A program made the translations under genes and the position numbers. A stretch of 64,000 nucleotides of DNA from Enterobacterales bacterium (lineage in GTDB: Bacteria > Pseudomonadota > Gammaproteobacteria > Enterobacterales > GCA-2746155): the NCBI GenBank assembly GCA_965250035.1, contig OZ252282.1, positions 2,998,536-3,062,535 of the forward strand. Direction: 5' to 3'. This document shows positions 51,081 through 58,808 of this stretch, piece by piece; the stretch's first letter is position 1, and every line of letters starts with the position of its first letter. The notes under the pieces were generated by a model. That model did no database searches. It was not told the origin of the DNA and worked only from the letters and a program-made list of their open reading frames with translations.

Positions 51081-53120
51081 ATGTCATCAGTTCATGACAA
51101 TATAACCATCGTCGTCCCTAACGCACTGGAGTTGTTAAACACGCCAGTCTGGATCTGGGACATGGAAGCAGAAAACATCATCTGGGGCAATCCATCCTGC
51201 CTGGAGCTATGGGGTGCCGACACCGTCCAGCAACTACAACAGATGGATTTCACCAATCAGCCATTGCTGACACAATTTCAAGAAATGTCTAAACGGTTTC
51301 GTGCCGGACTCAGTGTCGAAGAAGAGCAGATTTTCAGTATCCGGGGCACACCCACAACGGTAACCTGTCAATGTCAGGGCATTGATATCGATGGCTATGA
51401 ACTAACCGCCCTGGTTGAAGTGCGACAGGTAGCCAGGAGCCCGCAGGATGCGAACGTTCAGTCCAGTATTGAAGCGCTACAGCACACGCCGGCAATGGTT
51501 TCCATATTCACGATGGACGGCGTCTGTCTGATGCGTAATCCGGCGGCAATGCGCAGCTTTGGCTTCCTCAATCCGAACGACAAGGAAACCATCTTTGACC
51601 GTATCTGCGATGCTTCGGTAGCGCAGGAATTGCGCGATAGTATGACGCGCGGCACATCGTTTTCCGCCGAGATCATGACCCAGACCAAACAGGGTGAACG
51701 TTGGCATCATTTCGATGCTCGAATCATCCTTAATCAAAATAACAGCCAGGTCATTCTGGTCAATGAGCTGGATGTCCACAAGCGTAAGATGGCGTCCGAT
51801 CAGGCGTATCGTCTCGCCTATTATGACCCCCTGACGGAATTACCCAATCGTGTGGCATTTGCTAATCGTGTCGAGGATATATTACTTGGTTTGAGTCACA
51901 AGCAGGATGAGAGTGCATTAGTCATCTACCTCAACATCAACAATTTCAGCGATGTTAACAGTACCTTTGGCTTTGCAGCGGGGGATAAGCTGCTTCAGGA
52001 TGTTGGGCAGCGACTCACCGAGAGTTTGCCGGACGCTGAAATCGTCTCTCGCGTGGGTGCGGATAAATATGCCGTGGTCTATCAGCTGTCCAGCGATGCC
52101 AACCAGATCCAAGAATTTGTGAATCGCATCATTTCCCAGTTCGACAAGCCGTATCAGATCCTCGAGCATGCCTATCTGGTTGGGATCCGAATGGGTATTT
52201 CTCTGCTCCCGGAACATGCCCAGAGCGAAATGGAGGCGAGTCGGGTAACGGATATTGCGCTCAACCATGCCCGAGATAAGGGACGCAATGCCTGGGTATT
52301 GTATAACTCACGGATGTCGATTGTGACGTATGAGAAAACCCAACGTGTTCAACAGATCTATGAGGCGATGGCGAAAGGCCAATTCATGCTCTATTTCCAG
52401 CCGCAAATCGATCTGGCGACTGGGAAGATGATCGGTGCAGAAACCCTGATGCGCTGGCGCCAGGAGGATGGCAGTTTCGTATCACCCGCGGTCTTTATCC
52501 CCCTGGCTGAACAGATGGGTGTTATCAATGACATCAGCCGCTGGGTGATACGCGAGGCTTGTCGACTGAATCGCAGTTGGTCTGATAAGGGTTTTGATTC
52601 GTTTCGGGTGGCGGTGAATATCTCGGGCGCTGAATTCGATGATCCAGATTTCGTTGGGATGGTGAAAGATGCCCTCTTCAGTAGTGGTCTTGAGCCCCAT
52701 TTACTTGAGTTAGAGGTCACAGAGACGGCCCTGGTACATGACATTGATCAGGCGGTCGAGGTCCTCAATCGGATCAAGGAATTAGGCGTTGAGGTGGCGA
52801 TTGATGATTTCGGCACGGGTCACTCTTCGCTCAATTATTTGAAACGTTTTCCAATTGACCGGCTAAAAATCGATAAGTCTTTTGTGGACCAAATCAAGTC
52901 CGGTGGCAAACAGGATCTCGCCATCGTAAAGGCGATCCTCGATATGGCCTCAGCTTTTGAGATCAGTACAATCGCGGAGGGAATCGAGCATGCAGAACAG
53001 GCTAAAATTCTGCATGACATCGGTTGCCATGAAGGCCAGGGGTATCATTTTTCTAAACCCCTATCGGTCGCCGAGTTTGAAAATCTGATGATGTCCAAAC
53101 AGGAAGCGCCGCAAGTCTAA
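51081..53120 (+). CDS. PAS-GGDEF-EAL signalling protein (degenerate GGDEF, EAL-type phosphodiesterase)
   Basis: 679 aa. The GGDEF position reads GADKY. The EAL domain has ETLMR, DDFGTGHSS, EGIE and QGYHFSKP. Confidence 0.9.
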   Translation: MSSVHDNITIVVPNALELLNTPVWIWDMEAENIIWGNPSCLELWGADTVQQLQQMDFTNQPLLTQFQEMSKRFRAGLSVEEEQIFSIRGTPTTVTCQCQGIDIDGYELTALVEVRQVARSPQDANVQSSIEALQHTPAMVSIFTMDGVCLMRNPAAMRSFGFLNPNDKETIFDRICDASVAQELRDSMTRGTSFSAEIMTQTKQGERWHHFDARIILNQNNSQVILVNELDVHKRKMASDQAYRLAYYDPLTELPNRVAFANRVEDILLGLSHKQDESALVIYLNINNFSDVNSTFGFAAGDKLLQDVGQRLTESLPDAEIVSRVGADKYAVVYQLSSDANQIQEFVNRIISQFDKPYQILEHAYLVGIRMGISLLPEHAQSEMEASRVTDIALNHARDKGRNAWVLYNSRMSIVTYEKTQRVQQIYEAMAKGQFMLYFQPQIDLATGKMIGAETLMRWRQEDGSFVSPAVFIPLAEQMGVINDISRWVIREACRLNRSWSDKGFDSFRVAVNISGAEFDDPDFVGMVKDALFSSGLEPHLLELEVTETALVHDIDQAVEVLNRIKELGVEVAIDDFGTGHSSLNYLKRFPIDRLKIDKSFVDQIKSGGKQDLAIVKAILDMASAFEISTIAEGIEHAEQAKILHDIGCHEGQGYHFSKPLSVAEFENLMMSKQEAPQV

Positions 53121-53124
53121 TCCG

Positions 53125-54783
53125 CTAGTCGGCCGCGAACACCTGTTCTCCTGCCAAATAGGTTGCCAGCACCTTAATTTTCCAGATGTCTTGCTCGGGT
53201 ATTTCCATATAATCCCGATCCACCAGGATGAAGTCGGCCCACTTGCCGGCCTCGAGTGAACCGATGACCTTTTCCTGATGACCGGCGTATGCGGCGTCCA
53301 ATGTGAAGGAGCGCAATGCCTCTTCACGCGTCATCTTTTGATCCACTCGCCAGCCACCCATTGGCTTGTTGTTTCGATCCTGTCGGGTTACGCCGGCATG
53401 TAAGCCATAAAAGGGATTCGATGGTTCGACTGGGAAGTCAGAGCCATTGGCGATGCGGGATCCTTGTTGTAAAAATTTACGCCAGGCATAGGCACCCGCG
53501 AGACGCTTCTCACCCACCCGTGCCTTGGCCATATTCATGTCCGATGTCGCATGGGTTGTCTGCATGGAAGGGATGACATCAAGCTCCTTGAAGCGCGGGA
53601 TGTCCTTCAGGTGGACGATCTGTGCATGTTCGACTCGATTGCGCAGGTTTCGGTATTGCGGATATTTAGCAAAGATATCTAAGAGTAGTCGATTACCCTT
53701 ATCCCCGATGGCGTGGGTATTCACCTGAAAGCCGTTCTCCATGGCGAACTTAGTCATCGCCTCGGTGTTTTCCGGTGTATGCAACAGTAGGCCAGTACTC
53801 TCTGGACGATCGGAATAGGGCTCATCCAGTGCCGCACCACGGCTACCCAATGCACCGTCAATCTGGATTTTTATGCTGCGAATCGAGAGTTTGTCGTCAT
53901 ACAAGGAAGGCTCAGGGCCATTTTTTATGACGTCTTCGTAGCCATCAGAAGTGACCGATAGCATGCCATAGACCCGGACATCGAGTGCATCGGCTTCGCC
54001 GATCTTTTTGAACGCGACGATTTCCTCTGGTGATATGCCTGCGTCATGGACCGAGGTGATACCCTCGGAGGCCAGTTTTGCAAAGGCGGTTTCAATGTAA
54101 TCGATGATTTGTTGTTCTGAAATTTCAGGGATGGCGCGGCTGACAATATCCATGGCGTTATCAATCAACACGCCCGTCGGATTGCCGTTTTCATCCTTCA
54201 GGATTTCACCACCCTGAGGATCCAAGGTATTGCGATCGATGCCTGCGCGCCGCAGGGCTTCTGAATTGGCCCAGGCAGCATGGCCATCGACGCGATTCAA
54301 GAAGACGGGCTTCCCGGGGACCGCATTGTCGAGGGTCTCGGCATTAGGGAATTCGTTCTTGTCCCATAACACCTGATTCCAGCCACGGCCGAGGATCCAT
54401 TCCTGGGTGTTATTCTTGCGCGCGAATTCTGCCACGAGCTGCGCCGCATGCTCGGCTGATTTACTCTTAGTCAGGTCGACATTTTGTAACGACTGACCAT
54501 AGCTCATGATGTGACCATGGGCATCGATTAGACCGGGTAGCAGATAGTTTCCCTGGCCATCAATCAGAGTACGTTTCTTTTTCGTCTGTAATAGTTTCTC
54601 AACGGAGGGCTTATCCAGGGTTTGTACTACCTTGCCCTGATCATCATAGAGTAGTCCATGAAAGGTCAATAAGCCATCCTCGGTAATGGTATAGCCTTTG
54701 ATATTATGAACCAGGGTTTCTGCGAGTGCAGGGGCACTGATAATAAGAACCAATAGACTGATAATTGTGCGATGTAGATTCAT
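53125..54783 (-). CDS. Secreted metal-dependent amidohydrolase (YtcJ-like, amidohydrolase_3)
   Basis: 552 aa with signal peptide MNLHRTIISLLVLIISAPALA and the GLIDAHGH metal motif. Its start is 14 nt downstream of the kinase gene. Confidence 0.85.
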   Translation of the reverse strand: MNLHRTIISLLVLIISAPALAETLVHNIKGYTITEDGLLTFHGLLYDDQGKVVQTLDKPSVEKLLQTKKKRTLIDGQGNYLLPGLIDAHGHIMSYGQSLQNVDLTKSKSAEHAAQLVAEFARKNNTQEWILGRGWNQVLWDKNEFPNAETLDNAVPGKPVFLNRVDGHAAWANSEALRRAGIDRNTLDPQGGEILKDENGNPTGVLIDNAMDIVSRAIPEISEQQIIDYIETAFAKLASEGITSVHDAGISPEEIVAFKKIGEADALDVRVYGMLSVTSDGYEDVIKNGPEPSLYDDKLSIRSIKIQIDGALGSRGAALDEPYSDRPESTGLLLHTPENTEAMTKFAMENGFQVNTHAIGDKGNRLLLDIFAKYPQYRNLRNRVEHAQIVHLKDIPRFKELDVIPSMQTTHATSDMNMAKARVGEKRLAGAYAWRKFLQQGSRIANGSDFPVEPSNPFYGLHAGVTRQDRNNKPMGGWRVDQKMTREEALRSFTLDAAYAGHQEKVIGSLEAGKWADFILVDRDYMEIPEQDIWKIKVLATYLAGEQVFAAD

Positions 54784-54797
54784 ATTCTCTCCGGATA

Positions 54798-55658
54798 TTA
54801 GACGTTTGCGAGCAGCTCTGACAGGCGCTCTTGTTGAGATTCAGTGACTTGTTCGACTTCTTTCTGGACTGCCAACTCCCAAAGCAGGGCGACATATTCA
54901 TAGACCCACAACCAGTCTTTAAATGCCCGTTCATGAGATGACCAGTATTCACCGAAATAACTCTTCAAGACATTCTTTTGTTGCTGTTGCGTCAGCGCAT
55001 TGCCTTTACACAGGGCGGCAAGTTCAAATAACGGTGAGTTAACGCCGGAAAATTCCCAGTCGAAAAAGTGAATTGACTCGTTGATGAGGATATTGCTTGC
55101 TAGCAGATCATTGTGACAGAGACAATTATCATATTGCTCGGCTGACGACTCGATGATGCCCCTTGCCTTGGAGAGCAGTTCCCCACGCAACAACTCAGGG
55201 GCGACAGAATCCTGATCGATTTTGGCGCGGTAATTGTTAATGCTGTTGAGTAAATCCTGCTCGGGCAAATCGTCCACCGGCAGGGAGTGGATCTGTTTAA
55301 TACGCTCCATCAGTCGCTTGACACGATTCATATCATCGAAATCTTCTTCGCTCCAGTAATCGCCTTCGATCCAGCGCGCTATTGAGAATTGCTCATCCAG
55401 ATCGAAGTAGATAATGACGGGTGCCACCTGGAGCGGCTCCAGGTGCGACATGATACGCATCTCCTTTTTATGGTCGATGCCGAGGTCGATGGCCTCATGG
55501 TTAAAGAATTTTATGACGTATTCATCTTTACTGAATTTAAGATGATAGCTCTCGTTGGTAATGCCCTGGGTGAGATGCTTATAGGATATAAGCATGCGAC
55601 TGCTCAGTTCAGGTACCATTTCCAGGTAACGTTTAAGATTTGAAATCGAGCGTGTCAC
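54798..55658 (-). CDS. APH/choline-kinase-fold phosphotransferase, candidate thiamine kinase
   Basis: 286 aa with Brenner-like motif LCHNDLLASNIL and FFDWEF. Its position in a TPP-riboswitch operon supports the call. An alternative start at 55619 would remove the overlap with the PnuC-like gene. Confidence 0.7.
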   Translation of the reverse strand: MTRSISNLKRYLEMVPELSSRMLISYKHLTQGITNESYHLKFSKDEYVIKFFNHEAIDLGIDHKKEMRIMSHLEPLQVAPVIIYFDLDEQFSIARWIEGDYWSEEDFDDMNRVKRLMERIKQIHSLPVDDLPEQDLLNSINNYRAKIDQDSVAPELLRGELLSKARGIIESSAEQYDNCLCHNDLLASNILINESIHFFDWEFSGVNSPLFELAALCKGNALTQQQQKNVLKSYFGEYWSSHERAFKDWLWVYEYVALLWELAVQKEVEQVTESQQERLSELLANV

Positions 55659-56247
55659 GATACTGTTTCTTCCATACTAAATACCCTGAAATGCTAAGGA
55701 CAATGTACAACCCGAATAACAGGGCTGTCAGGATTAGGTCCTTATTCAGATAAAGGTAAATTGAAATACTATTGATCACGATCCAGTAAAGCCAGTTCTC
55801 TAAAACCTTACGCGTGACCATCCAGGTGGTTAATACTGCACTCCAAGTCGTGAAAGAGTCAAGCCAAGGATAACTGGCATTGGTATTTTGTAGCAGGGTG
55901 GCTGACAGGGCTGTGAGGGCCAGGATTAGCAATAATGCCATCAGATGCTGTCTTAGATTCCAGCGACTGATGGCTAGTTCATGCCCCTGATCGTCCTTTC
56001 GGGTCCATGCATACCAGCCATAGATCGCCATCCCCATGTAGTAAACCTGCAGGAGCGACTCCATGAACAGGGTGACCTCGAAAAACAGCCAGGTGTAGAT
56101 GGCAGTACTGAGCAGGGCCGCTGGCCAGCACAGGATATTCTGTTTCATTGCGAATAACAGATAAGCAATGGCCAGGATGACGGCTACGAGTTCCCATATC
56201 CTGGCCGCGGTCCAGCCCTCGGCTAGCCACTGGAGGATTTCAGTCAT
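55633..56247 (-). CDS. pnuC: PnuC-family vitamin transporter, probably of thiamine (PnuT) type
   Basis: 204 aa with 7 TM helices. Trp-rich motifs (WLYWIVINS) are typical of PnuC. It is under TPP riboswitch control. Confidence 0.8.
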   Translation of the reverse strand: MTEILQWLAEGWTAARIWELVAVILAIAYLLFAMKQNILCWPAALLSTAIYTWLFFEVTLFMESLLQVYYMGMAIYGWYAWTRKDDQGHELAISRWNLRQHLMALLLILALTALSATLLQNTNASYPWLDSFTTWSAVLTTWMVTRKVLENWLYWIVINSISIYLYLNKDLILTALLFGLYIVLSISGYLVWKKQYRDTLDFKS

Positions 56248-56248
56248 G

Positions 56249-56500
56249 CTATTTGGGGGCTAGGTTACCGTTGATAAACTTGCACACAAACACGGCTTTA
56301 CCCTGCTCCTGCCAGGATGAAGTCATGGCTTGTTCGAGCAGCGGGAATACGACGCTGGAATCACCGAATAATTGGGTGCTCATGGTATTGGTAATAGCCG
56401 TTACCCCATCCGTTTGATTGATTTTGGCGATGAAGGCTTTGATTGGTGCGATGTATTCTTCCGCAAGCGGATAGCAACTGAGTTCGACTGATATATTCAT
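56249..56500 (-). CDS. Small YkoF/MTH1187-like (thiamine-binding-type) protein
   Basis: 83 aa. MNISVELSCYPL... has the pattern of the ferredoxin-like UPF0045/YkoF fold. The call rests on recall and operon context. Confidence 0.55.
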   Translation of the reverse strand: MNISVELSCYPLAEEYIAPIKAFIAKINQTDGVTAITNTMSTQLFGDSSVVFPLLEQAMTSSWQEQGKAVFVCKFINGNLAPK

Positions 56501-56518
56501 AATGTATCCTGATTGATG

Positions 56519-58591
56519 TTAATAACGGTATCTTACCGTAAATCCTACATGCCTTGGATCGCCAAGGCGTTCATACAGCTTGACCGGGAAATCGGGTGGC
56601 TCATTGGCAAAGTAGAAGCCACGCACGGTGGTGCGTTCATTGGTCAGATTCTGGGCCCACAGATAATAACTCCAGGATGCCTCCTGATAGCCAAACTTCA
56701 GATTCACGGTATGACTGGAATCGGCGATCTGATCGTGGCTGAAAGAATAGTAAAAGTCATCTTTCATTTGCGCCTGTATACGGCCGAACCAGCCGTCATC
56801 GTCGGCATAGTTAAGCGCAAACGATAACATGGTGTTGGGGGCATGGGCCTGCTCACGTCCCTGCAGGCGCTGTTCAGCACCCTGAAATTCCTCGATTTTC
56901 GTGCTCAGATAACCCACGGTCATATCATAAGACCAGTTGTCATTGAGTTGATAACTCAGTTCGGCCTCGAGTCCCCGGTTATAGCCTTCGGCGGCGTTAT
57001 CGATGAGGAAGATAAAGGTCAGCGGATCGGTTGGATCCAACTGTTGCGACGTACTGATCTGAACTTCATCCCGCTGCATGTTGAAAATCGATGCGGACCA
57101 GCGTAGCGCGCCATCGGCGGATCGGCCACGCAGCCCGGCTTCCATATTCAGCACGTATTCCGGATCGAATTGACGCAATTCATCCGGGATCGACAGGCTT
57201 AGGTTAAAGCCCCCCGCCTTGTAACCACGGGCGATAGAATACCAGGATGTTAAGGTATCCGAGTGCTGCTTTATCAGGCTGATTTCACCACCATTCATGG
57301 TATCGGTCGGATTGAAATCGACCGGAGAGGTATCTCGATAGTCTGCCTCACGCCGTTCACGACGCAGGCTGACCGAGACGGTCGTATCTTCTGCCAATGC
57401 CCAGCGTAGTTGACCATAGATGGCCAGGGTATCGGCGGAATATTGTGAACTTAGGCTGCGGAAAATGGCACCGTTATATAGGTCAGTGATGTCATTATCT
57501 TCCTCCAGCGATTGTTGATAAAGACCCACAACCCAGTCAGTCGCACGTCGATCAGAGATCGGTTTGGACAGCAGTCGGACCTCATTGGTACTTGTGTTTC
57601 GACGCCGATCGGTGTCCGAGGTGAAATCATAGGGGCCGTTGACTCCCCATAGGTCAGGATTACCCCAGTCGCCATCGAATGCAACCCGGTTATCGATATC
57701 GGCATAGGTGCTGATGATTAGCCAGTCCAGCTGCTCTCCGGTCACCTCCCAGCGAGCGGCCATGGCAGTGGTCTTTTGTGAGTCCTCGCCGGGTTTATCG
57801 GTGGTTGTTATGTAGCTGTTATCCAGTGCCCAGAGATCATACCCATTGTCGAGTTCTGACTCGATAAGGGTCAGTTTAATTTCATGATTCTCGGCGGGTA
57901 ACAGGCGCAGTTTGGCGCGCATGTTAAATTCATCACGTTCGTTGGTATCATCGCGATTAAGGTACACGTTATCGCGGAAGCCATTGTTGACATACTGGTC
58001 GACGCTGATGAGACCGAGCACACTGTCATCCTCGGACAGGCTTCCCGAAGCCGACACTGACACACCATAGGTGTCATGATCGGCAATCATGAACTGACTA
58101 TTCAGTTCCGTTTCTGCCAGCGGATCTCGGCTCTGTACCCGGATCATTCCGGCGATCGCATTGGCACCATAGCGAGCACTTTGTGGGCCCCTGAGTACCT
58201 CGACCTGGCTAATATCGAATAGGCTGGCTAGCATACCCATGCTACTAAAATCGATATCATCGATAATCATCGCGACGGATGGATTGGGGGCGCCCTCATA
58301 CTGGTCTAACTCACCAATTCCGCGGATCTGAAAAAATTTCGGCCGCGAGCTACCGCCGGCCCAATTGAGGTTGGGTAGCAGGTTGATGACCTCCTCGAAG
58401 TGCTGCTCGGCAGCCTGTTGCAGCGCTTCTTCACTCATCACGCTGATACTCGAAGTGGTATTTTGTAAGTCGCTGTCACGATAATCTGCCGTGACGGTGA
58501 TCCGGTTGTCTGATTCCGACGACTCGTCAGCGATCAGTGAATAGTTGAGGGCTGCGGCAATCAGCAGCGATATATAGCGGACTGGTTTCAT
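56519..58591 (-). CDS. TonB-dependent outer-membrane receptor
   Basis: 690 aa with a signal peptide and a plug domain (VEVLRGPQSARYGANAIAGMI). The C-terminus is ...GFTVRYRY. Confidence 0.9.
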   Translation of the reverse strand: MKPVRYISLLIAAALNYSLIADESSESDNRITVTADYRDSDLQNTTSSISVMSEEALQQAAEQHFEEVINLLPNLNWAGGSSRPKFFQIRGIGELDQYEGAPNPSVAMIIDDIDFSSMGMLASLFDISQVEVLRGPQSARYGANAIAGMIRVQSRDPLAETELNSQFMIADHDTYGVSVSASGSLSEDDSVLGLISVDQYVNNGFRDNVYLNRDDTNERDEFNMRAKLRLLPAENHEIKLTLIESELDNGYDLWALDNSYITTTDKPGEDSQKTTAMAARWEVTGEQLDWLIISTYADIDNRVAFDGDWGNPDLWGVNGPYDFTSDTDRRRNTSTNEVRLLSKPISDRRATDWVVGLYQQSLEEDNDITDLYNGAIFRSLSSQYSADTLAIYGQLRWALAEDTTVSVSLRRERREADYRDTSPVDFNPTDTMNGGEISLIKQHSDTLTSWYSIARGYKAGGFNLSLSIPDELRQFDPEYVLNMEAGLRGRSADGALRWSASIFNMQRDEVQISTSQQLDPTDPLTFIFLIDNAAEGYNRGLEAELSYQLNDNWSYDMTVGYLSTKIEEFQGAEQRLQGREQAHAPNTMLSFALNYADDDGWFGRIQAQMKDDFYYSFSHDQIADSSHTVNLKFGYQEASWSYYLWAQNLTNERTTVRGFYFANEPPDFPVKLYERLGDPRHVGFTVRYRY

Positions 58592-58633
58592 AATGGTTCC
58601 AATAACAGAAAATTAATAAGCACTTGTTTGGAA

Positions 58634-58728
58634 CCGACGGATGGTCATACCTTTCCCTACGCCAGTATAATCTGGATCAGGTTCCAGGGTTCGCAGTGCG
58701 TCTCAGGTCAAATGACCACCCCTAAGGT
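58634..58728 (-). promoter_or_regulatory. TPP (THI-box) riboswitch
   Basis: The minus strand reads GGGGTGGTCATTTGACCTGAGACGCACTGCGAACCCTGGAACCTGATCCAGATTATACTGGCGTAGGGAAAGGTATGACCA. It has the conserved CUGAGA and ACCUGAUCnnGnUAAUnCnnGCGUAGGGAA cores and a P1 stem TGGTCAT/ATGACCA. Confidence 0.9.
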
Positions 58729-58808
58729 GATGCAGAGTATAACCGATCCCTTTATCTATTTGCCATATCTACAACGTATGGTATTTTGGGATTAATAAAA
58801 TAAGAAGA

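What the first reader, a model, noticed from the sequence alone, without database searches (positions are those of the whole stretch)
53125..58591. Five-gene thiamine-scavenging operon ending in a periplasmic amidohydrolase
Downstream of the TPP riboswitch, all on the minus strand with gaps of 1-18 nt or overlaps, lie five genes:
- a TonB-dependent receptor
- an 83 aa YkoF/MTH1187-like protein
- a PnuC-family transporter
- an APH/choline-kinase-fold phosphotransferase, the same fold as E. coli thiamine kinase ThiK
- a 552 aa amidohydrolase with a signal peptide (GLIDAHGH metal site), 14 nt further on

From memory, comparative-genomics work has noted linkage of outer-membrane receptor, PnuT and kinase under THI elements. 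The amidohydrolase is the unexplained member. A periplasmic hydrolase in this position could convert a thiamine-related precursor or degradation product, such as an amide or formyl-aminopyrimidine derivative, into a transportable form. That role is inferred from context only.
Basis: partly seen in the sequence, partly recalled or inferred. Interest (0 to 1): 0.6.

Follow-up and report, generated by a model that had tools for sequence, protein, structure and literature searches.

The report
Thiamine uptake operon with appended amidohydrolase
This is an ordinary vitamin-B1 (thiamine) uptake operon under a thiamine-sensing RNA switch; the fifth gene, a periplasmic amidohydrolase, probably rides on the same transcript in this one bacterial lineage, but its relatives elsewhere show no link to thiamine.

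Summary
A TPP riboswitch (58637-58733, minus strand) precedes five tightly packed minus-strand genes:
- a TonB-dependent receptor
- an 83-aa YkoF-like protein
- PnuT
- a ThiK-like APH-fold kinase
- a 552-aa signal-peptide YtcJ-like amidohydrolase

The first four form a known kind of thiamine uptake-and-trapping cassette. It recurs, with its riboswitch, in many marine and sediment gammaproteobacterial contigs.

The amidohydrolase follows the kinase directly in 8 of 9 distinct loci of the window's own lineage, with spacing from a 7-nt overlap to an 86-nt gap. Co-transcription there is therefore likely. That whole lineage also shares its flanking gene order. In one member an opposite-strand gene and about 560 nt separate the two genes, with no second riboswitch.

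Outside this lineage the evidence is against a thiamine link:
- 76 of 80 species-level orthologue loci (40-52% identity) have no thiamine genes and no TPP aptamer within up to 10 kb.
- The other four (Woeseiaceae-like) carry it convergent to the cassette, behind gloB.
- Other lineages place it next to hut genes or an M42 peptidase.
- The linked clade shows no clade-specific change at family-conserved residues.

A thiamine-precursor-processing role is not supported, though not excluded. Interest is low to moderate.

The parts
58637..58733 (-). TPP riboswitch aptamer (THI element)
   Evidence: Rfam RF00059, 66.6 bits against a gathering score of 54.3, E = 6.9e-11, full-length model match. My own model R1 re-finds it at 100.8 bits.
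58595..58635 (-). Putative expression-platform hairpin (GGUUCCAA…UUGGAACC). Its 3' arm ends 3 nt before the receptor ATG and covers the likely ribosome-binding site. No U-tract follows it, so translational control is inferred.
   Evidence: Sequence. The hairpin appears in both the MFE and the centroid fold. The overall fold is not better than shuffled sequence (z = -0.77), so this part is an inference only.
56519..58591 (-). TonB-dependent outer-membrane receptor (690 aa, signal peptide); presumed thiamine receptor
   Evidence: Pfam Plug plus TonB_dep_Rec_b-barrel. It is directly downstream of the riboswitch. Homologues sit behind a TPP aptamer in the ten related loci scanned whose upstream DNA is held: L020, L025, L041, L082, L084, L086, L088, L091, L093, L094.
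56249..56500 (-). Small YkoF/MTH1187-like protein (83 aa, no signal peptide); presumed cytoplasmic thiamine/HMP-binding protein
   Evidence: Pfam Ykof, 25.1 bits (cut-off 21). The Woeseiaceae homologue also hits Thiamine_BP PF01910. It is present between the receptor and PnuT in most related loci.
55633..56247 (-). Pnu-family inner-membrane facilitator (PnuT, 204 aa)
   Evidence: Pfam NMN_transporter, 177 bits. NCBIfam TIGR01528, 87.5 bits. The thiamine assignment rests on the riboswitch and kinase context and on PMC5749112.
54798..55658 (-). APH/choline-kinase-fold kinase, ThiK-like (286 aa); presumed thiamine-trapping kinase
   Evidence: Pfam APH plus Choline_kinase. NCBIfam ThiK TIGR02721 gives 91.3 bits (below the 299 cut-off) and GntI gives 143.9 bits. 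The catalytic HNDL..N and DWE motifs are invariant in alignment A2.
53125..54783 (-). YtcJ-like (COG1574, Amidohydro_3) metallo-amidohydrolase with signal peptide (552 aa); last gene of the cluster, substrate unknown
   Evidence: Pfam PF07969, 351.9 bits. H89/H91, K305, H357, H386 and D449 are invariant in 36 homologues; these are the positions I take to be the metal ligands. The AlphaFold model has pLDDT 91.7. The closest structures are the uncharacterised 3IGH and 3ICJ. A 14-nt gap with an SD sequence follows the kinase stop.

Best explanation
**The first four genes.** The riboswitch and the first four genes form a thiamine uptake-and-trapping cassette.
1. When TPP is low, the riboswitch allows expression. 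Control is probably at translation initiation of the receptor gene, with downstream genes following by coupling or polarity.
2. The TonB-dependent receptor brings thiamine across the outer membrane.
3. PnuT lets it diffuse across the inner membrane.
4. The ThiK-like kinase phosphorylates it so that it cannot leave. The small YkoF-like protein may help by binding it.

**The fifth gene.** The amidohydrolase is the local orthologue of a very widespread periplasmic YtcJ-like metallo-amidohydrolase of unknown substrate. In this one gammaproteobacterial lineage it lies at the 3' end of the cassette and is most likely transcribed with it by read-through. It is not a specialised thiamine enzyme. Its position is best explained by lineage-specific gene order.

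**Shown and inferred.** Shown: gene identities, the riboswitch, the spacing, and the comparative distribution. Inferred: the substrates, the mode of riboswitch control and co-transcription.
For: **Cassette identity**
- The four-gene cassette recurs behind TPP aptamers in related loci.
- PnuT facilitated diffusion with kinase trapping was shown experimentally for Shewanella woodyi PnuT (PMC5749112).
- A riboswitch-controlled OM receptor-pnuT-kinase operon is described in Bacteroidetes (PMC5613172).

**Likely co-transcription in this lineage**
- The gap is 14 nt, carries an SD sequence and has no terminator.
- Direct co-directional adjacency holds in the window, L082, L084, L086 (7-nt overlap), L170, L171, L172 (4-nt overlap) and L091.

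**Not thiamine-specific**
- Only 4 of 80 species-level orthologue loci have the cassette nearby, and only 2 of the 50 loci with at least 5 kb on both sides.
- No TPP aptamer was found in the other 76 loci.
- The nearest outgroups L089, L173 and L174 are unlinked.
- In L088 a response-regulator gene lies on the opposite strand, followed by a 115-aa ORF and about 560 nt of AT-rich spacer. There is only one riboswitch, upstream of the receptor.
- In Woeseiaceae-like loci the gene is convergent and overlaps gloB. Some of these loci keep gloB but lack the amidohydrolase.
- Other cassettes carry a different fifth gene, a VanZ-like protein.
- Elsewhere the amidohydrolase is followed by hutU/hutH or by an M42 peptidase.
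- The NJ tree follows taxonomy, with the two linked groups as separate clades.
- The linked clade has 0 clade-specific substitutions at family-conserved sites.
- GC3 matches the neighbouring genes.
Against: - Overlapping stop and start codons with the kinase in two relatives suggest real operon integration, so expression would be TPP-repressed. That is odd for an unrelated housekeeping enzyme.
- Adjacency survives although the gene downstream of the amidohydrolase varies (GGDEF-EAL, DUF885 or SSF) and the kinase has diverged to about 33% identity.
- A second, unrelated lineage (Woeseiaceae-like) also keeps the amidohydrolase within 1-3 genes of the cassette. By my rough estimate this has only about a 5% probability by chance.
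- No transcript data are available.
- Whether the genome holds a second paralogue could not be checked.
Confidence: 0.6

Rival explanations
1. The amidohydrolase is a functional member of the system. It would be a periplasmic enzyme that converts a thiamine-related amide into a form the cell can import and use. [quoted passage not shown]
For: - Operon-like spacing and overlaps are conserved in 8 of 9 distinct loci of the lineage.
- A second lineage shows proximity.
- The Amidohydro_3 family includes an N-substituted formamide deformylase (NfdA) and N-acyl-amine hydrolases (PMC13081902).
- FAMP occurs in seawater, and marine bacteria lack a clear YlmB deformylase (PMC10470507).
Against: - About 95% of orthologue loci are unlinked to thiamine genes or riboswitches.
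- L088 breaks the linkage.
- The Woeseiaceae copy is convergent and co-operonic with gloB, and is dispensable next to the cassette.
- There is no sequence specialisation in the linked clade.
- The cluster has no TenA, ThiD or ThiE, which would be needed to use a deformylated pyrimidine.
- PnuT and a ThiK-like kinase point to intact thiamine as the cargo (PMC5749112).
Confidence: 0.17
2. The amidohydrolase is an independent transcription unit. It would be driven by a promoter inside the 3' end of the kinase gene, would not be thiamine-regulated, and its adjacency would be purely positional.
For: - In L088 the orthologue must have its own promoter, because an opposite-strand gene and a 560-nt spacer precede it.
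- L170 and L171 have AT-rich gaps of 81-86 nt that could hold a promoter.
- The riboswitch probably acts on translation of the first gene only, so distal genes may escape control.
Against: - The gap in the window is 14 nt, and there are 4- and 7-nt overlaps in L172 and L086.
- No promoter-like match lies upstream of the amidohydrolase start on the minus strand beyond chance level.
- There is no terminator after the kinase.
Confidence: 0.18

Closest known systems
TPP-riboswitch-controlled outer-membrane receptor / PnuT / kinase thiamine uptake operons. Examples are Bacteroides OMthi-pnuT-tnr3 (PMC5613172) and the Shewanella pnuT locus, with PnuT characterised in PMC5749112. From memory, they were predicted by Rodionov et al. 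2002, a paper not held in the library.
   Same: The layout is the same: a TPP aptamer upstream of a TonB-dependent receptor, a Pnu-family facilitator, and a cytoplasmic kinase for metabolic trapping, all in one transcription direction.
   Different: The kinase is an APH-fold ThiK-like enzyme rather than the Tnr3-type thiamine pyrophosphokinase of Bacteroides. A small single-domain YkoF-like protein is inserted between the receptor and PnuT. A periplasmic amidohydrolase is appended in this lineage only.
E. coli thiamine kinase ThiK/YcfN (NCBIfam TIGR02721)
   Same: Same APH/choline-kinase fold and the same catalytic motifs. The match is significant (E = 5.4e-26).
   Different: It scores 91 bits against an equivalog cut-off of 299. 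It scores higher against GntI (144 bits). The substrate has not been tested.
YtcJ-like metal-dependent amidohydrolases (Pfam PF07969 / COG1574). The solved structures are 3IGH and 3ICJ. Characterised Amidohydro_3 members include NfdA, aminoacylases and metallo-bile-salt hydrolases (PMC13081902).
   Same: Full-length Amidohydro_3 match, conserved HxH/K/H/H/D metal ligands, and TM-score 0.84 (normalised to the target) to 3IGH and 3ICJ.
   Different: It is only 27-28% identical to the solved structures, which are themselves uncharacterised. It carries a signal peptide. No characterised enzyme could be shown to be a close relative, so the substrate is unknown.
Bacillus thiamine-pyrimidine salvage: ThiXYZ import of FAMP, YlmB deformylase, TenA (described in PMC3020362 and PMC10470507)
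   Different: YlmB is an M20-family peptidase, an unrelated fold, and is cytoplasmic. The cluster here has no ThiY/ThiXZ and no TenA. No evidence links the amidohydrolase to FAMP.

Membership tests
TPP riboswitch (RF00059) | Covariance-model match above the curated gathering score, covering the full aptamer | tested here: met
   66.6 bits against 54.3, model positions 1-105 of 105.
TPP riboswitch (RF00059) | Located in the 5' leader of a thiamine-related gene on the same strand | tested here: met
   The aptamer ends 45 nt upstream of the receptor ATG. The position is the same in ten related loci.
TonB-dependent receptor | N-terminal plug domain plus a C-terminal beta-barrel, with a signal peptide | tested here: met
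   Pfam Plug 63.1 bits and TonB_dep_Rec_b-barrel 84.5 bits. The N-terminal hydrophobic leader is visible.
TonB-dependent receptor | Thiamine as the transported ligand | not testable with these tools
   Inferred from the riboswitch and the operon partners only.
PnuT (thiamine-specific Pnu transporter) | Pnu-family membrane protein | tested here: met
   PF04973, 177 bits. TIGR01528, 87.5 bits against a cut-off of 42.45.
PnuT (thiamine-specific Pnu transporter) | Thiamine rather than nicotinamide riboside as substrate | not testable with these tools
   NCBIfam would name it PnuC. The thiamine assignment rests on the TPP riboswitch and the adjacent ThiK-like kinase.
Thiamine kinase ThiK (TIGR02721 equivalog) | Score at or above the curated equivalog cut-off | tested here: not met
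   91.3 bits against 299.45. The best NCBIfam hit is GntI at 143.9 bits, also below its cut-off.
Thiamine kinase ThiK (TIGR02721 equivalog) | APH-fold catalytic motifs (HxDxxxxN loop, metal-binding Asp) | tested here: met
   C181-H182-N183-D184-L185, N189 and D200-W201-E202 are invariant across nine cassette kinases.
YkoF / Thiamine_BP family | Pfam match above the gathering score | tested here: met
   PF07615, 25.1 bits against 21, which is marginal. The Woeseiaceae homologue hits both PF07615 and PF01910.
YtcJ-like amidohydrolase (PF07969 / COG1574) | Full-length Amidohydro_3 domain with conserved metal ligands | tested here: met
   351.9 bits over profile positions 2-472 of 472. H89, H91, K305, H357, H386 and D449 are invariant. 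The fold match to 3IGH/3ICJ has E = 8e-45.
N-substituted formamide deformylase (NfdA-like) | Close sequence relationship to NfdA, or formamide-deformylase activity | not tested
NfdA is known only as another Amidohydro_3 member (PMC13081902).
Thiamine operon membership of the amidohydrolase | Same strand, short gap, and no terminator or promoter between it and the kinase | tested here: met
   A 14-nt gap with an SD sequence. No terminator, and promoter-like matches at chance level.
Thiamine operon membership of the amidohydrolase | Linkage conserved across independent lineages | tested here: not met
   Co-directional linkage occurs only in one syntenic lineage and is broken in L088. 76 of 80 other orthologue loci are unlinked. 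Woeseiaceae-like loci are convergent, behind gloB.
Thiamine operon membership of the amidohydrolase | Thiamine-dependent co-transcription | not testable with these tools
   This needs RNA data.

The most novel reading that the evidence does not exclude
The widespread periplasmic YtcJ-like amidohydrolase family acts on a thiamine-derived amide, for example by deformylating FAMP to the aminopyrimidine that marine bacteria prefer. That would fill the role of the FAMP deformylase not yet identified in marine Gram-negative bacteria. Its placement in or beside TPP-controlled uptake cassettes in two unrelated lineages would then reflect that role.
Probability: 0.07. Interest if true: 0.7.

Novelty: new member of a known kind. 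Interest (0 to 1): 0.27.

Why it matters
If the amidohydrolase did process thiamine breakdown products, it would identify an unknown step of the marine vitamin-B1 cycle. FAMP-to-AmMP conversion has no assigned enzyme in marine bacteria (PMC10470507).

The evidence here points the other way. The cluster is one more example of a known riboswitch-controlled thiamine uptake cassette. Its last gene is best treated as a lineage-specific neighbour.

The practical value is cautionary. Tight spacing within one syntenic lineage is not enough to assign a pathway role. This amidohydrolase should not be annotated as thiamine-related.

Tried and rejected
**Organism name.** Not obtained.
- The exact-sequence look-up and the kinase homologue search gave no names.
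- Two clade members are only labelled 'Enterobacterales bacterium' and 'Gammaproteobacteria bacterium' MAGs.
It returned only orthologues of 40-52% identity and not the source genome.

**Common functional context for the amidohydrolase family.** Clustering of neighbour ORFs found none, only lineage-specific neighbours.

**Structural clue to the substrate.** The PDB sequence search and Foldseek gave only uncharacterised archaeal homologues as close matches.

**Second riboswitch in front of the separated amidohydrolase of L088.** None was found.

**Clade-specific substitutions suggesting a new specificity.** None was found.

**Foreign origin by base composition.** GC and GC3 match the neighbouring genes.

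**Literature.** Rodionov et al. 2002 and Melnick et al. 2004 are not held in the library, so statements about them are from memory.

**Riboswitch expression platform.** The leader does not fold better than shuffled sequence, so the proposed RBS-sequestering hairpin remains an inference.
Full report
**1. Observation**

The five minus-strand ORFs are at the stated coordinates:

| Gene | Coordinates | Length |
|---|---|---|
| TonB-dependent receptor | 56519-58591 | 690 aa |
| YkoF-like protein | 56249-56500 | 83 aa |
| Pnu-family transporter | 55633-56247 | 204 aa |
| APH-fold kinase | 54798-55658 | 286 aa |
| Amidohydro_3 protein | 53125-54783 | 552 aa |

- The spacings are 18 nt, 1 nt, a 26-nt overlap and 14 nt.
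- Pfam confirms every family assignment.
- The only Rfam hit in the 64-kb window is a full-length TPP aptamer at 58637-58733 on the minus strand (66.6 bits, gathering score 54.3). It ends 45 nt upstream of the receptor start codon.
- The amidohydrolase has a Sec-type leader and the HxH motif GLIDAHGH.
- A GGAGAG Shine-Dalgarno sequence lies in the 14-nt gap after the kinase stop codon.
- There is no terminator-like hairpin between the kinase and the amidohydrolase. Promoter-like matches in the region do not exceed chance.
- The amidohydrolase stop codon is 4 nt from the stop codon of a convergent PAS-GGDEF-EAL gene.

**2. The first four genes**

The kinase matches the E. coli thiamine kinase model TIGR02721 significantly (E = 5.4e-26). 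It scores far below the equivalog cut-off (91 against 299 bits) and scores higher against GntI. It is therefore ThiK-like, not ThiK. Its APH catalytic motifs are invariant among nine cassette kinases.

The transporter passes the PnuC model of NCBIfam. The thiamine assignment rests on context.

The same cassette recurs widely:
- A scan of metagenome contigs with a kinase alignment returned 80 loci. Most of those long enough show receptor, YkoF-like protein, PnuT and kinase in the same order.
- A TPP aptamer precedes the receptor in all ten related loci scanned with Rfam whose upstream DNA is held.

The experimental background supports the model:
- PnuT of Shewanella woodyi is a thiamine facilitator that does not bind TMP or TPP, consistent with trapping by phosphorylation (PMC5749112).
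- Riboswitch-controlled OMthi-pnuT-tnr3 operons are characterised in Bacteroides (PMC5613172).
- SO2713 of S. oneidensis is annotated pnuT (PMC5955497).

The likely mechanism is as follows:
1. Low TPP opens the leader.
2. The receptor imports thiamine across the outer membrane using TonB energy.
3. PnuT equilibrates it across the inner membrane.
4. The kinase traps it, possibly helped by the small cytoplasmic YkoF-like binder.

No U-tract terminator lies between the aptamer and the start codon. A hairpin (58595-58635) covers the probable ribosome-binding site. I therefore infer translational control. The fold is not statistically distinctive (z = -0.77), so this step remains inference.

**3. 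The amidohydrolase within its own lineage**

Homologues of 61-89% identity form a close clade. Contig look-ups and the metagenome scan gave nine distinct loci of this clade.

- In eight loci the amidohydrolase follows the kinase directly on the same strand:
  - window: 14-nt gap
  - L082: 18-nt gap
  - L084: 16-nt gap
  - L086: 7-nt overlap
  - L170: 86-nt gap
  - L171: 81-nt gap
  - L172: 4-nt overlap
  - L091: about 30-nt gap, contig ends inside the gene

- Overlaps and short gaps make co-transcription likely there.

Two observations weaken the inference.
- **Shared flanks.** The loci with enough flanking DNA (six to eight of the nine, depending on the side) share the same flanks: a divergent AMP-binding enzyme upstream, and GGDEF-EAL, ferrochelatase, Usp, DUF3301, ExbD and Fpg downstream. 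They represent one lineage with generally conserved gene order.
- **A broken link.** In L088 (65% identity, same flanks) the kinase is followed by a response-regulator gene on the opposite strand, a 115-aa ORF and about 560 nt of AT-rich spacer before the amidohydrolase. The only TPP aptamer is upstream of the receptor. In that genome the enzyme cannot be part of the riboswitch-controlled transcript.

**4. The amidohydrolase elsewhere**

The family is very large: 8000 scored candidates all passed E <= 1e-20.

A scan of one genome per GTDB species returned 80 loci at 40-52% identity. They come from Gammaproteobacteria, Burkholderiales, Balneolaceae, Gemmatimonadota, Acidobacteriota and others.
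- Only four of these loci have the thiamine cassette nearby (L020, L022, L025, L041; Woeseiaceae or unnamed Gammaproteobacteria).
- Among the 50 loci with at least 5 kb on both sides, two have it.
- A covariance model built from eleven TPP aptamers of these cassettes found an aptamer only in L020, L025, L041 and the window, across 1.44 Mb.
- The nearest outgroups of the linked clade are also unlinked: L089, L173 (Lacimicrobium alkaliphilum) and L174.

In the Woeseiaceae-like loci the amidohydrolase is convergent to the cassette.
- Its stop codon overlaps the start of gloB (Lactamase_B plus HAGH_C), and gloB in turn faces the kinase.
- Of 27 kinase-anchored metagenome loci with a PnuT hit and at least 2.5 kb downstream, 16 show this convergent arrangement at 0.8-4.2 kb.
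- Several others keep gloB next to the kinase with no amidohydrolase behind it: L097, L127, L128, L152 and L169. The gloB assignment is confirmed by Pfam for L097, by sequence for L127 and L152, and inferred from ORF size and position for L128 and L169.
- GloB, not the amidohydrolase, is therefore the stable neighbour there.

Other cassettes carry a different co-directional fifth gene, a VanZ-like membrane protein (L094, L108).

In other lineages the amidohydrolase has other partners:
- urocanase and histidine ammonia-lyase in six Oxalobacteraceae loci
- an M42 aminopeptidase in eight Gemmatimonadota (mostly Gemmatimonadaceae) loci

No neighbour is shared across the family.

**5. Phylogeny and sequence**

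- A neighbour-joining tree of 74 amidohydrolases groups sequences largely by taxonomy. The co-directional clade and the convergent clade are each monophyletic and are not sisters.
- The linked clade (26 sequences) has no position where it is fixed for a residue different from the one conserved in the rest of the family. Comparison clades show 0-2 such positions.
- The positions I take to be the metal ligands (H89, H91, K305, H357, H386, D449) are invariant.
- The AlphaFold model is confident (pLDDT 91.7). It closely resembles only two uncharacterised archaeal hydrolases, 3IGH and 3ICJ.
- Characterised Amidohydro_3 enzymes include N-substituted formamide deformylase, aminoacylases and metallo-bile-salt hydrolases (PMC13081902). 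An N-acyl-amine substrate is therefore plausible, but nothing specifies which.
- GC and GC3 match the neighbouring genes.

**6. Weighing**

For a thiamine role:
- operon-like integration in this lineage, including overlaps
- persistence of the kinase-amidohydrolase junction while the gene downstream of it varies
- a second lineage with proximity, which I estimate would arise by chance about 5% of the time. The estimate assumes roughly 30 sampled lineages and about 6 neighbouring positions out of about 3500 genes. It is an order-of-magnitude figure, not a computed statistic.
- the open question of which enzyme deformylates FAMP in marine bacteria (PMC10470507)

Against a thiamine role:
- about 95% of orthologue loci are unlinked
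- the L088 interruption
- the convergent, gloB-coupled and dispensable arrangement in Woeseiaceae-like loci
- heterogeneous partners elsewhere
- no sequence specialisation
- a cluster built around intact thiamine (PnuT plus a ThiK-like kinase), with no TenA, ThiD or ThiE to use a pyrimidine product

I conclude that the cassette is an ordinary member of a known kind. The amidohydrolase is most probably a lineage-specific 3' neighbour, probably co-transcribed, and not a dedicated thiamine enzyme (confidence 0.6). The functional-member reading stays at about 0.17 and the independent-transcript reading at about 0.18.

**7. Novelty and score**

This is a new member of a known kind. The ThiK-like kinase and the small YkoF-like protein distinguish this proteobacterial cassette from the Bacteroides version, but they recur widely in the loci examined. 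Only the appended amidohydrolase is unusual, and the comparative evidence for its relevance is weak. Interest 0.27.

Noticed in passing
L091:7387-11167: This close relative (kinase 55% identical) has riboswitch, receptor, YkoF-like protein, kinase and amidohydrolase but no pnuT. Only a 118-nt gap lies between the YkoF-like gene and the kinase. How thiamine would cross the inner membrane there is unclear.
   Followed up: partly
L088:2676-9674: This relative lacks the YkoF-like gene (84-nt gap between receptor and PnuT). A response-regulator gene lies on the opposite strand, followed by an unannotated 115-aa ORF, between the kinase and the amidohydrolase.
   Followed up: partly
L094:10806-11726 and L108:10837-11766: In two more distant cassettes (one from a TARA Oceans contig) the co-directional fifth gene is a 306-309 aa VanZ-like membrane protein. 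It overlaps the kinase stop by 10 nt in L094. The L094 copy has a weak CBM_11-like C-terminal part. Its function with thiamine uptake is unknown.
   Followed up: partly
L020:9989-13347 (also L025, L041, L097, L127, L152): In Woeseiaceae-like contigs, gloB (hydroxyacylglutathione hydrolase) is the constant convergent neighbour of the cassette kinase. The amidohydrolase, when present, overlaps the gloB start by 4 nt.
   Followed up: partly
L023, L027, L029, L032, L038, L040 (about 40 nt downstream of the amidohydrolase in L023): In six Oxalobacteraceae loci the orthologous amidohydrolase is followed on the same strand by urocanase and histidine ammonia-lyase. In eight Gemmatimonadota (mostly Gemmatimonadaceae) loci it is followed by an M42 aminopeptidase. 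This may hint at a role in amino-acid or peptide nitrogen scavenging.
   Followed up: partly
window:53120-53125: The amidohydrolase and the convergent PAS-GGDEF-EAL gene (51081-53120, plus strand) end 4 nt apart with no terminator-like structure. Convergent transcripts would overlap.
   Followed up: no
window:60452-62149 (-): A 565-aa protein fuses HEAT repeats to a cyclophilin-type peptidyl-prolyl isomerase. It is also present in four of the close-clade loci with enough upstream DNA (L001, L082, L084, L088). Its 3' end overlaps the convergent AMP-binding gene by 4 nt.
   Followed up: no
window:58580-58740 (-): In the MFE fold of the leader, the 5' part of the aptamer (GGGGUGGUCA) pairs with a segment just downstream of the aptamer (UGACCAUCC) instead of forming the aptamer. 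This could be the ligand-free alternative structure of the expression platform.
   Followed up: no
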